A program made the position numbers and the translations under genes. From the IMG/VR virus record IMGVR_UViG_2563366959_000008: a DNA stretch of 22,976 nucleotides; one strand, 5' to 3'. The notes under the pieces were generated by a model. The model was not told the origin of the DNA, ran no database searches, and saw only the letters and a program-made list of their open reading frames with translations. Position 1 is the first letter of the stretch; each line of letters opens with the position of its first letter. Positions 1 to 544 of the stretch are shown here, piece after piece. Source of the stretch: a virus (taxonomy: Duplodnaviria; Heunggongvirae; Uroviricota; Caudoviricetes).

Positions 1-96
1 CTGAATGCGCTGACGCTGACGGATGTTACAAAAAATGCAGCGTATGGCGTTGAGATAGAAAGTCTGGTGCTGGAGATAAATGCACCGGCAGCATAA
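1..96 (+). CDS. 3' end of an upstream CDS (partial, function not assignable from 31 codons)
   Basis: Open frame from the window edge to TAA at 94-96 (…LNALTLTDVTKNAAYGVEIESLVLEINAPAA*). It lies directly upstream of the lysis cassette. Confidence 0.3.
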   Translation: MNALTLTDVTKNAAYGVEIESLVLEINAPAA

Positions 97-105
97 TAAA
101 AAAAG

Positions 106-138
106 AGCCAGCGACTGACCTGAAAGAAGACGCTGGCT
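106..138 (-). repeat. Inverted repeat AGCCAGCG-N17-CGCTGGCT; candidate minus-strand terminator or protein-binding site
   Basis: 8-bp perfect inverted arms at 106-113 and 131-138; an A7 run at 94-105 on the plus strand gives a U-tract after the hairpin on the minus strand. Confidence 0.3.
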
Positions 139-253
139 AAAAGGCCTTATATGTTTGTAGAGACTTATTTTTCACAGACAGCAATGATGCCTGTCAATAT
201 ATTATCAATATGCGGATTGTTTCAGTTACAGATGCTTTATTAAGGAAAAAAAC

Positions 254-288
254 AGCCAGCACTGACTTTCGGTGGAGAGGTGCTGGCT
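254..288 (-). repeat. Second copy of the same inverted-repeat element (AGCCAGCAC-N17-GTGCTGGCT)
   Basis: 9-bp arms at 254-262 and 280-288; relative to copy 1 the stem carries a compensatory G-C to A-T change; an A7 run at 245-251 gives a minus-strand U-tract. Confidence 0.3.
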
Positions 289-544
289 CAGAAGGATAGT
301 TGGATTTCACATGATACTTATGCCTGGCGGTATATTTTCTGACAGACAGTGACGGGTGTTGTCAAGATATTGTGTCATTTATAACCTGAATCAGGGGGTG
401 GCCGGAATGTTATCTGGCATTTTTAGCAGAGCCTGAATGCCATAATCACGGCTCCCGGAGTTGGCCGTCAGTGGGTGACACTGGCGGCTTTTTTGTTTTT
501 CTTTACTTTCATTTTCTGTCGGCGGTGACGGAGACATACATCAG

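What the first reader, a model, noticed from the sequence alone, without database searches (positions are those of the whole stretch)
94..410. Tandemly duplicated ~150-bp element upstream of the holin, each copy with an inverted repeat that covaries
Two degenerate tandem units (about 97-247 and 248-410) each begin with an A7 run followed by AGCCAGC(G/A)-N17-(C/T)GCTGGCT and later a gacagacag…tgtcaa.atatt block. Between copies the stem has a compensatory G-C to A-T substitution that preserves pairing, which argues for selection on structure. On the minus strand each hairpin is followed by a U-tract, so they could be tandem terminators for antisense transcripts crossing S; alternatively the 17-bp-spaced arms are operators for a dimeric protein.
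Basis: seen in the sequence. Interest (0 to 1): 0.55.

Follow-up and report, generated by a model that had tools for sequence, protein, structure and literature searches.

The report
Known prophage small-RNA genes PasA/EcOnc52
The two repeated hairpin units between the phage esterase gene and the holin gene are the ends of two already published Hfq-bound small RNAs (PasA and its downstream neighbour EcOnc52) read from the opposite strand, so the feature is real but already known.

Summary
Two hairpins (106-138, 254-288) each follow an A7 run, 148 nt apart, inside two diverged but significantly similar units. Unit 2 is the published Hfq-dependent prophage sRNA PasA on the minus strand (window 330->246, 85 nt). 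The published Northern probe matches 255-279 exactly, and the 3' 51 nt are 98% identical to PasA of EPEC E2348/69. The published 236-nt minor PasA isoform ends at hairpin 1. Unit 1 coincides with the Hfq-bound RNA EcOnc52 of EHEC Sakai (window 163->86). So both hairpins are minus-strand intrinsic terminators of sRNA genes embedded antisense in the phage late operon, between the nanS-p-type esterase and the pinholin. Across variants, four stem pairs change on both sides while pairing is kept, and loop length varies from 14 to 20 nt. That fits an RNA hairpin better than a protein operator. The units are tandem paralogues, each with a TTGACA-N10-CTGTCTGT promoter-like block. PasC looks like a unit-1/unit-2 hybrid. 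Overall: already known, modest interest.

The parts
1..96 (+). 3' end and TAA stop of the nanS-p-type SASA sialate O-acetylesterase gene, convergent with the sRNA genes
   Evidence: RefSeq annotation of 100% identical loci. ORF end read.
64..74 (+). CTGGTGCTGGA in the esterase mRNA. It has 8 nt (66-73) complementary to the PasA seed and is a published RIL-seq target site of PasA in the homologous genes.
   Evidence: Direct repeat D16, 66-73 = 279-286. Pearl Mizrahi 2021 motif table lists E2348C_0688 and E2348C_1246 sites GAUAGAAAGU CUG(A/G)UGCUGGA GAUAAAUGCA.
98..138 (-). Terminator 1: hairpin 106-138 (8 bp + U.U + 2 bp) followed on the minus strand by U7 (104-98). It is the 3' end of the 236-nt PasA isoform and of the unit-1 RNA.
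   Evidence: Fold -16 kcal/mol, z = -4.85. Annotated as a minus-strand terminator in phage 434. RIL-seq RNA2 fragment at 743267-743294 = window 98-125.
86..163 (-). Unit-1 RNA, equivalent to EcOnc52 (Hfq-CRAC cluster in EHEC Sakai prophage Sp4)
   Evidence: Tree 2014 Table S2 coordinates 1181998-1182075(-) mapped onto L259, which is identical in sequence to the window here.
168..202 (-). Unit-1 promoter-like block AATATATTGACA-N10-CTGTCTGT-GAAAAA. -35 TTGACA at 197-192; extended -10-like TGT-GAAAAA at 176-168. Predicted +1 is about 162.
   Evidence: Inference from sigma-70 geometry; the 5' edge of EcOnc52 lies at 163.
246..330 (-). PasA sRNA (85-nt major form), a variant with a diverged 5' third
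   Evidence: Coordinates 743499->743415(-) of NC_011601 transferred through alignment A1. 74/85 identical overall, 50/51 in the 3' part. EcOnc51 = window 226-302.
246..288 (-). Terminator 2: hairpin 254-288 (9 bp) followed on the minus strand by U7 (252-246)
   Evidence: Fold -16.3 kcal/mol, z = -3.25. Annotated as a terminator in phage 434.
255..279 (+). Exact match to the published PasA Northern probe GCCAGCACTGACTTTCGGTGGAGAG
   Evidence: Table S6 of PMC8550237 compared with the sequence.
278..287 (-). Published PasA seed GCCAGCACCU (5' arm of the terminator)
   Evidence: Fig. S5 text of PMC8550237. Sequence.
336..371 (-). PasA promoter-like block AATATCTTGACA-N10-CTGTCTGT-CAGAAA. -35 at 365-360; TGT-CAGAAA at 344-336. 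Predicted +1 is about 330.
   Evidence: Nearly invariant in 35 unit variants. The reported PasA 5' end maps to 330.
95..330 (-). 236-nt minor PasA isoform: read-through of terminator 2 to terminator 1
   Evidence: Table S6 of PMC8550237: same start, end at 743264 = window 95.
545..751 (+). Class II (pin)holin gene S, downstream neighbour in the late operon

Best explanation
Window 94-410 is the pasA small-RNA locus of a lambdoid (Stx-type) prophage. It lies in the 450-nt gap between the nanS-p-type sialate esterase gene and the pinholin gene and is read from the strand opposite to the late operon. Unit 2 is the gene for PasA, an 85-nt Hfq-dependent base-pairing sRNA. Transcription most likely starts near 330 from a promoter with a perfect -35 TTGACA (365-360) and an extended -10-like TGT-CAGAAA. 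It stops at the 9-bp hairpin plus U7 (288-246). The seed GCCAGCACCU is the 5' arm of that terminator. Some polymerases read through the long-looped terminator and stop at the second hairpin plus U7 (138-98), one base from the esterase stop codon. This gives the published 236-nt minor form and keeps antisense transcription out of the esterase gene. Unit 1 is a diverged tandem paralogue of unit 2, with the same promoter-like block, a shorter body and a related terminator carrying a different seed-like arm (GCCAGCGUCU). Its RNA is also Hfq-bound (EcOnc52; RIL-seq entity pasA.E2348C_0688.IGR). It may in addition be made from its own promoter as a ~66-nt sRNA. Shown here or in the cited papers: identity with PasA/EcOnc51/EcOnc52, strand, RNA 3' ends at both hairpins, Hfq binding, stem covariation and paralogy of the units. 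Inferred: the promoters, read-through as the source of the 236-nt form, and independent transcription of unit 1.
For: Identity: the published PasA probe matches 255-279 exactly, and PasA coordinates map to 246-330 on the minus strand. Identity is 74/85 overall and 50/51 in the seed and terminator part. Context is the same as published, esterase > < pasA > holin. 3' ends: the 85-nt major and 236-nt minor ends map to the two U tracts. A RIL-seq RNA2 fragment at window 98-125 lies on terminator 1. The unit-1 entity is always RNA2, has a U tract of 7 and has 5 partners. EHEC Hfq-CRAC clusters: EcOnc51 = 226-302 and EcOnc52 = 86-163, both minus strand. Structure: both hairpins fold at about -16 kcal/mol with z of -3.3 and -4.9. 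On 18 distinct units, 93.9% of stem cells are paired, four pairs change on both sides, and slid controls give only 20-55%. PasC pair 9 is U.G on the minus strand, which would be C.A on the plus strand. The phage 434 record annotates both as minus-strand terminators. Promoter: TTGACA-N10-CTGTCTGT occurs only at these two sites in the window. It is conserved across all unit types while the 10-nt spacer differs between units. Canonical spacing predicts +1 at 330 and 162, against reported 5' edges at 330 and 163.
Against: No expression data exist for this particular strain; everything experimental is transferred from E2348/69 and Sakai. The -10 elements are poor (CAGAAA, GAAAAA, no T at -7), and the consensus promoter scan did not call them. 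Zhu et al. 2026 read the Northern as suggesting that the PasA 5' end arises by cleavage of a longer transcript. If so, the conserved block would be leader RNA, not a promoter. The 17-nt loops are long for intrinsic terminators. The whole 336-nt region does not fold better than shuffles on the minus strand (z = -1.43). EcOnc51/52 reads may be multi-mapped among identical prophage copies.
Confidence: 0.9

Rival explanations
1. Unit 1 is not a gene of its own. It is only the 3' tail and back-up terminator of PasA read-through transcripts, and its promoter-like block is a relic of the duplication.
For: Pearl Mizrahi et al. list it as the minor 236-nt PasA isoform with the same 5' start. The unit-1 hairpin has decayed in a few genomes while PasA stays intact (L148, L217; L257). 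No unit-1-specific Northern is published in what I read.
Against: The block AATATATTGACA...CTGTCTGTGAAAA is kept in all unit-1 variants, including solitary plasmid copies whose RNA body has about 10 substitutions. EcOnc52 was called in Sakai Sp4, where an IS629 lies directly upstream of unit 1 and no PasA unit adjoins it. Its 5' edge (163) is 1 nt from the +1 predicted by the block. The RIL-seq fragment ratio PasA:unit 1 is 42:1 in one condition and 2:1 in the other.
Confidence: 0.45
2. The hairpins act in the plus-strand late mRNA, as processing or stability elements at the end of the esterase cistron, rather than on the minus strand.
For: The late transcript must contain both hairpins. On the plus strand they fold as well or better (-20.8 and -15.6 kcal/mol; region z = -2.29). 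Hairpin 1 starts 10 nt after the stop codon.
Against: The uridine runs follow the hairpins only on the minus strand. PasC pair 9 and pair 7 of the plasmid variant pair only as G.U on the minus strand. Published Northern, RNA-seq, RIL-seq and CRAC signals are on the minus strand. This role could coexist with the sRNA role but does not explain the A7 runs or the promoter-like blocks.
Confidence: 0.1
3. The inverted repeats are operators for a dimeric DNA-binding protein.
For: They are perfect 8-9-bp palindromic arms, and symmetric changes in both arms would also be expected for a dimer site.
Against: Arm spacing varies from 14 to 20 nt among natural variants, about half a helical turn. An A7/T7 run flanks every copy on one side only. 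The RNA 3' ends map here. No regulator gene adjoins the site.
Confidence: 0.02

Closest known systems
PasA (pathogenicity-associated sRNA A) of EPEC E2348/69 prophage PP2 = EcOnc51 of EHEC Sakai Sp12 (Pearl Mizrahi et al. 2021, PMC8550237; Tree et al. 2014, PMC4104026; Zhu, Shabalina & Storz 2026, bioRxiv 10.64898/2026.05.13.724894)
   Same: Same position (esterase > < sRNA > holin), same strand and same terminator, seed and probe sequence. The 3' 51 nt are 98% identical. The 85/236-nt architecture maps onto the two hairpins.
   Different: The 5' 34 nt are only 71% identical to the E2348/69 allele. This probably corresponds to the 'PasA-2' variant that Zhu et al. describe as diverging in the first 40 nt. 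That is an inference, because their sequences are only in figures.
PasC of EPEC E2348/69 prophage PP5
   Same: Same promoter-like block (39/41) and a similar body. Its terminator stem AGCCAGCG/CGCTGGCT and the flanking UUUUAGCCAGCGUC are those of window unit 1. It sits directly after the esterase stop, as unit 1 does.
   Different: PasC loci have a single unit. The loop is 14 nt and of different sequence, but the same PasC-type hairpin occurs in unit-1 position in the two-unit locus L177. PasC therefore looks like a unit-2 body joined to a unit-1 terminator.
EcOnc52 (Hfq-CRAC candidate sRNA, Sakai prophage Sp4)
   Same: Identical sequence to window 86-163, minus strand.
   Different: In Sp4 an IS629 follows unit 1, so PasA is not adjacent. 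EcOnc52 was never validated by Northern in the paper's table.
Tandemly duplicated sRNA genes such as OmrA/OmrB (E. coli) and PrrF1/PrrF2 (Pseudomonas)
   Same: Two same-strand paralogues about 150 nt apart, each with a terminator, conserved 3' parts and diverged 5' parts. Read-through of the first terminator gives a longer species, as for PrrH (from my own knowledge).
   Different: An independent promoter for the downstream copy is not demonstrated. Zhu et al. explicitly contrast Pas genes with OmrA/B and PrrF1/2 and state that pasA copies are not products of tandem duplication. They were considering full-length copies at least 22 kb apart.

Membership tests
PasA/PasC prophage sRNA family (EcOnc51/52) | Sequence match to the experimentally validated PasA, including the Northern probe and seed | tested here: met
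   Probe matches 25/25 at 255-279 and the seed lies at 287-278. Identity is 74/85 overall and 50/51 in the 3' part.
PasA/PasC prophage sRNA family (EcOnc51/52) | Located between the sialate esterase gene and the holin-lysozyme genes of a lambdoid prophage, on the opposite strand | tested here: met
   compared.
PasA/PasC prophage sRNA family (EcOnc51/52) | [quoted passage not shown] | tested here: met
   Both units. Covariation.
PasA/PasC prophage sRNA family (EcOnc51/52) | Expressed, Hfq-bound and Hfq-stabilised RNA | not testable with these tools
   Shown only for the homologues in E2348/69 and Sakai.
Intrinsic (Rho-independent) terminator | G+C-rich stem immediately followed by a run of U on the transcribed strand | tested here: met
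   On the minus strand: 8-9-bp stems with 5-6 G-C pairs, then (C/G)U7. On the plus strand there is no U run.
Intrinsic (Rho-independent) terminator | Short loop (typically 3-8 nt) | tested here: not met
   Loops are 14-20 nt, partly closed by 2+2 weak inner pairs. The simple scan only called a sub-hairpin of unit 1. This fits partial read-through.
Intrinsic (Rho-independent) terminator | RNA 3' ends at the U tract in vivo | not testable with these tools
   Published coverage-based ends for the homologue map to both U tracts.
Tandem paralogous sRNA genes (OmrA/B-like) | Adjacent same-strand copies of common descent | tested here: met
   Alignment score is 9 sd above shuffles. Shared blocks are seen in A2.
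Tandem paralogous sRNA genes (OmrA/B-like) | Each copy has its own active promoter | tested here: inconclusive
   Both copies have a conserved TTGACA-N10-CTGTCTGT block, and reported 5' edges fit it. The -10 elements are weak and no TSS data are available.
Palindromic operator of a dimeric regulator | Fixed spacing of half-sites | tested here: not met
   Spacing is 14, 15, 17, 19 or 20 nt in natural variants.
Rfam-curated RNA family | Match to a covariance model at gathering score | tested here: not met
   No family matches 1-800 at gathering score. Only chance snoRNA hits appear at E >= 1.3.

The most novel reading that the evidence does not exclude
The pasA locus is a tandem pair of paralogous sRNA genes. 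Unit 1 (EcOnc52) would be transcribed from its own TTGACA/extended -10 promoter as a ~66-nt Hfq-binding sRNA whose seed-like arm (GCCAGCGUCU) differs from that of PasA. The single-unit alleles would arise by unequal crossing-over within the pair: PasC would be a unit-2 body joined to a unit-1 terminator, and the AGCCAGUAC type a clean loss of unit 1. That would revise the published view that Pas genes did not evolve by tandem duplication.
Probability: 0.45. Interest if true: 0.35.

Novelty: already known. Interest (0 to 1): 0.25.

Why it matters
PasA is among the most connected accessory-genome sRNAs in EPEC, with 41 RIL-seq partners that include LEE and bfp virulence genes. The region occurs in 692 of 5426 complete E. 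coli genomes, a median of 5 places per carrying genome. For a genome scan, the main value is that the finding can be filed as an annotated-in-the-literature sRNA locus that neither Rfam nor RefSeq annotation marks. The extra points are of interest mainly to sRNA-evolution specialists. They are the degenerate tandem paralogue, the shared promoter-like block, the hybrid origin of PasC, and the reading of the longer Northern band as 3' read-through rather than a 5' precursor. These points would guide where to place probes and promoter mutations.

Tried and rejected
- Tandem Repeats Finder found nothing in 1-800, because the units are too diverged and differ by indels.
- Rfam gave no family at gathering score and only chance hits at permissive E-values.
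- Folding the whole 336-nt region was uninformative on the minus strand (z = -1.43) and dominated by cross-pairing of the two homologous hairpins. Only the individual hairpins stand out.
- The palindrome-only scan of IMG/VR (AGCCAGC-N14-22-GCTGGCT) returned mostly unrelated phages. Only L049, L060 and L084 were true two-hairpin loci. Flank-anchored patterns worked instead.
- My RNAduplex test of PasA against the esterase 3' end gave an uninterpretable output and no significance. I rely on the 8-nt match and the published RIL-seq target instead.
- The consensus promoter scan did not call the TTGACA blocks. It proposed a different weak minus-strand site (225->196, CTGAAA-18-TATATT) that has no counterpart in unit 2.
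- The 38-codon GTG ORF on the minus strand (310->194) was dismissed. It runs through the terminator, and its frame depends on the U-tract length, which is polymorphic at 6-8.
- The operator reading was rejected because arm spacing is variable.

Full report
**What is in the sequence.** The window starts in the last 96 nt of a gene that RefSeq annotates, in 100% identical loci of many STEC genomes, as a SASA-family carbohydrate esterase (the nanS-p / yjhS type sialate O-acetylesterase). A class II (pin)holin gene lies at 545-751. In the 450-nt gap there are two A7 runs (98-104, 246-252). Each is followed by an inverted repeat: AGCCAGCG-N17-CGCTGGCT at 106-138 and AGCCAGCAC-N17-GTGCTGGCT at 254-288. 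The hairpin pattern occurs twice in the window and never in 100 shuffles. The two units share further blocks. As a whole they align far better than shuffled sequence (score 62 versus 13.7 +/- 5.3, 0 of 1000 shuffles). Identity is only about 64% with a ~20-nt indel, and Tandem Repeats Finder misses them. With 8-nt arms the second spacer is 19 nt, not 17. The repeated unit is 97-202 versus 246-371, not the full 97-247 / 248-410.

**Identification.** The literature search led to the Pas sRNAs. Table S6 of Pearl Mizrahi et al. 2021 (PMC8550237) places PasA on the minus strand of E2348/69 at 743499->743415 (85 nt, major) or ->743264 (236 nt, minor). It lies between E2348C_0688 (esterase) and E2348C_0689 (holin). 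The Northern probe is GCCAGCACTGACTTTCGGTGGAGAG. That probe equals window 255-279 exactly. I fetched the E2348/69 locus (L004) and aligned it (A1). PasA maps to window 330->246, and the minor form ends at window 95, that is, at the U tract of hairpin 1. The window allele is 74/85 identical to E2348/69 PasA: 50/51 in the seed and terminator part but 24/34 in the 5' part. This matches the description of a common 'PasA-2' variant by Zhu, Shabalina & Storz 2026.

The same table notes EHEC homologues EcOnc51 and EcOnc52. Their coordinates come from Tree et al. 2014. Mapped on Sakai, EcOnc51 (Sp12) equals window 226-302 and EcOnc52 (Sp4) equals window 86-163, both on the minus strand. EcOnc51 is thus the 3' half of PasA, and EcOnc52 is the unit-1 RNA.

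In EPEC RIL-seq the segment between pasA and the esterase gene is a separate entity, pasA.E2348C_0688.IGR. It is always the second RNA of chimeras, has a U tract of 7 and has five partners. One chimera with escD maps to 743267-743294, which is window 98-125, on terminator 1. Phage 434's curated record annotates both hairpins as minus-strand terminators. Rfam 15 has no family for this element.

**Structure and covariation.** I collected about 120 related loci from IMG/VR with two flank-anchored patterns and extracted 35 distinct units. They fall into four types:
- PasA, stem AGCCAGCAC.
- A PasA allele with stem AGCCAGUAC/GUACUGGCU.
- PasC, stem AGCCAGCGUCC/GGGCGCUGGCU.
- Unit 1.

On 18 representative units (A2) the 10-pair stem is 93.9% paired. 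Six pairs are invariant, and four change on both sides: C-G/U-A at pair 7, A-U/G-C at pair 8, and C-G/U-G/U-A and C-G/U-A at pairs 9 and 10. Partners slid by 1-3 columns give only 20-55% pairing.

PasC pair 9 is U.G on the minus strand and would be C.A on the plus strand. A plasmid-borne unit 1 keeps pair 7 as U.G on the minus strand only. These are few events, but they favour the minus strand. So do the U tracts and all published RNA data. The distance between arms varies from 14 to 20 nt among variants. A hairpin loop tolerates that, but a dimeric operator would not.

Each hairpin is about -16 kcal/mol on the minus strand (z = -3.3 and -4.9). The loops are long for intrinsic terminators, which fits the published read-through product.

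**Promoter-like block.** Both units carry AATAT(C/A)TTGACA-N10-CTGTCTGT-(CA)GAAAA on the minus strand. The pattern TTGACA-N10-CTGTCTGT occurs only at 342-365 and 174-197 in the window. Across all unit types the two flanking blocks are invariant. The 10-nt spacer has a fixed length but a different sequence in unit 1 and unit 2. That is how a promoter behaves: -35 TTGACA, an 18-bp spacer, and an extended -10-like TG-T followed by CAGAAA or GAAAAA. Canonical geometry puts +1 at 330 and 162. The reported PasA 5' end maps to 330, and the 5' edge of EcOnc52 maps to 163.

This is inference. The -10 hexamers lack T at -7, and the consensus scan did not call them. Zhu et al. also read the Northern as indicating 5' processing of a longer transcript. 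However, the primary table gives one start and two ends. The longer band is therefore more simply explained as 3' read-through into unit 1.

**Evolution of the locus.**
- Of 113 IMG/VR loci with full upstream sequence, 74 have two intact hairpins, and about 27 have one PasC-type unit directly after the esterase stop.
- The AGCCAGTAC-type hairpin directly follows the esterase stop in 10 of 122 loci. It also occurs as unit 2 of a two-unit locus (L250).
- L177 is a two-unit locus whose unit-1 hairpin is the PasC-type hairpin.
- PasC shares UUUUAGCCAGCGUC and its stem with unit 1, and shares its body and promoter block with unit 2.
- The simplest reading is unequal crossing-over within a tandem pair, in two registers, but the direction (deletion versus duplication) is not resolved.
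- Zhu et al. state that pasA copies are not products of tandem duplication and contrast them with OmrA/B and PrrF1/2. They considered full-length copies at least 22 kb apart and do not mention the degenerate neighbour.
- Unit 1 is less robust than PasA. Its 5' arm has decayed in L148 and L217 and in a dog isolate (L257). It also survives alone next to IS elements on ~90-kb plasmids, with the promoter-like block intact, and in Sakai Sp4.

**Mechanism.** The shown and inferred parts are as follows. Hfq-dependent sRNAs are made from the strand opposite to the phage late operon. PasA uses the 5' arm of its own terminator as a seed (published). One of its RIL-seq targets is the 3' end of the neighbouring esterase mRNA. 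In this window that site has 8 contiguous complementary bases (66-73 = 279-286). Terminator 2 is leaky. Terminator 1, one base from the esterase stop codon, ends the read-through product and shields the esterase gene from antisense transcription. Whether unit 1 is also an independent gene is open; I put it near 50%. Both RNAs are perfectly antisense to the intercistronic part of the late transcript. A cis-antisense effect on lysis-gene expression after induction is therefore conceivable but untested.

**Verdict.** The element is already described experimentally as PasA/EcOnc51 plus EcOnc52. The operator alternative, and the idea of antisense transcripts crossing S, are not supported. Novelty is 'already known' and interest is low to moderate. 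The residual novel content is the tandem paralogy, the shared promoter-like block and the hybrid nature of PasC.

Noticed in passing
window 401-418 and 463-498 (+ strand): There are two plus-strand terminator-like hairpins just upstream of the holin start. GCCGGAATGTTATCTGGC is followed by ATTTTT, and the strong GGCCGTCAGTGGGTGACACTGGCGGC is followed by TTTTTTGTTTTT. The second is annotated as a terminator in phage 434. The stretch 334-500 is almost invariant among loci whose PasA body differs by 15-30%. It could be a late-operon attenuator or the end of a plus-strand sRNA.
   Followed up: partly
window ~325-343 (+ strand); E2348/69 743494-743512: Published RIL-seq lists a plus-strand RNA from the pasA-holin spacer (pasA.E2348C_0689.IGR). 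It has 798 fragments in the non-activating condition, almost always as RNA1, and is paired with the sRNA PasB. So the holin leader, opposite the PasA 5' end, may be a target of another prophage's sRNA.
   Followed up: no
window 752-1438, esp. 1007-1321 (- strand): About 690 nt are inserted between the holin and the SAR-endolysin (1439-1972). The insert carries a minus-strand ORF (104 aa from the first ATG; RefSeq annotates a 90-aa hypothetical protein, WP_000138558, in the identical locus). In phage 434 and E2348/69 PP2 the holin and lysozyme genes abut. This looks like a moron-type insertion.
   Followed up: no
window 7656-7772 (- strand): An ALIL pseudoknot (Rfam RF01497, 121.5 bits) marks the programmed-frameshift region of an IS3-family element. 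ORFs at 6840-7730 (-) and nearby suggest the element is inserted next to the terminase-sized ORF at 4688-6673 or inside that region.
   Followed up: no
window 3241-3555 (+) and 3637-3861 (-): A PerC-family transcriptional regulator homologue and a YlcI/YnfO-family gene lie downstream of the lysis cassette, as annotated in the identical O103:H2 12009 locus. PerC-like prophage regulators can activate LEE genes (from my own knowledge).
   Followed up: no
L256 (plasmid NZ_CP027220.1, 60226-60470) and about 100 other plasmid places: A solitary, diverged unit 1 (93% identical) with an 87-nt remnant of the esterase gene sits between IS600 and a uilS lactonase gene on ~90-kb STEC plasmids. Homology stops exactly where the unit-2 U tract would begin.
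   Followed up: partly
L186 and L236 (IMG/VR loci); Sakai Sp4 (L259 ~431): IS elements have inserted repeatedly at unit boundaries or inside the hairpins. L186 cuts PasA inside its terminator, which possibly corresponds to the terminator-less 'PasA-3' of Zhu et al. L236 removes the U tract of unit 1. In Sp4 an IS629 separates unit 1 from whatever lay upstream.
   Followed up: partly
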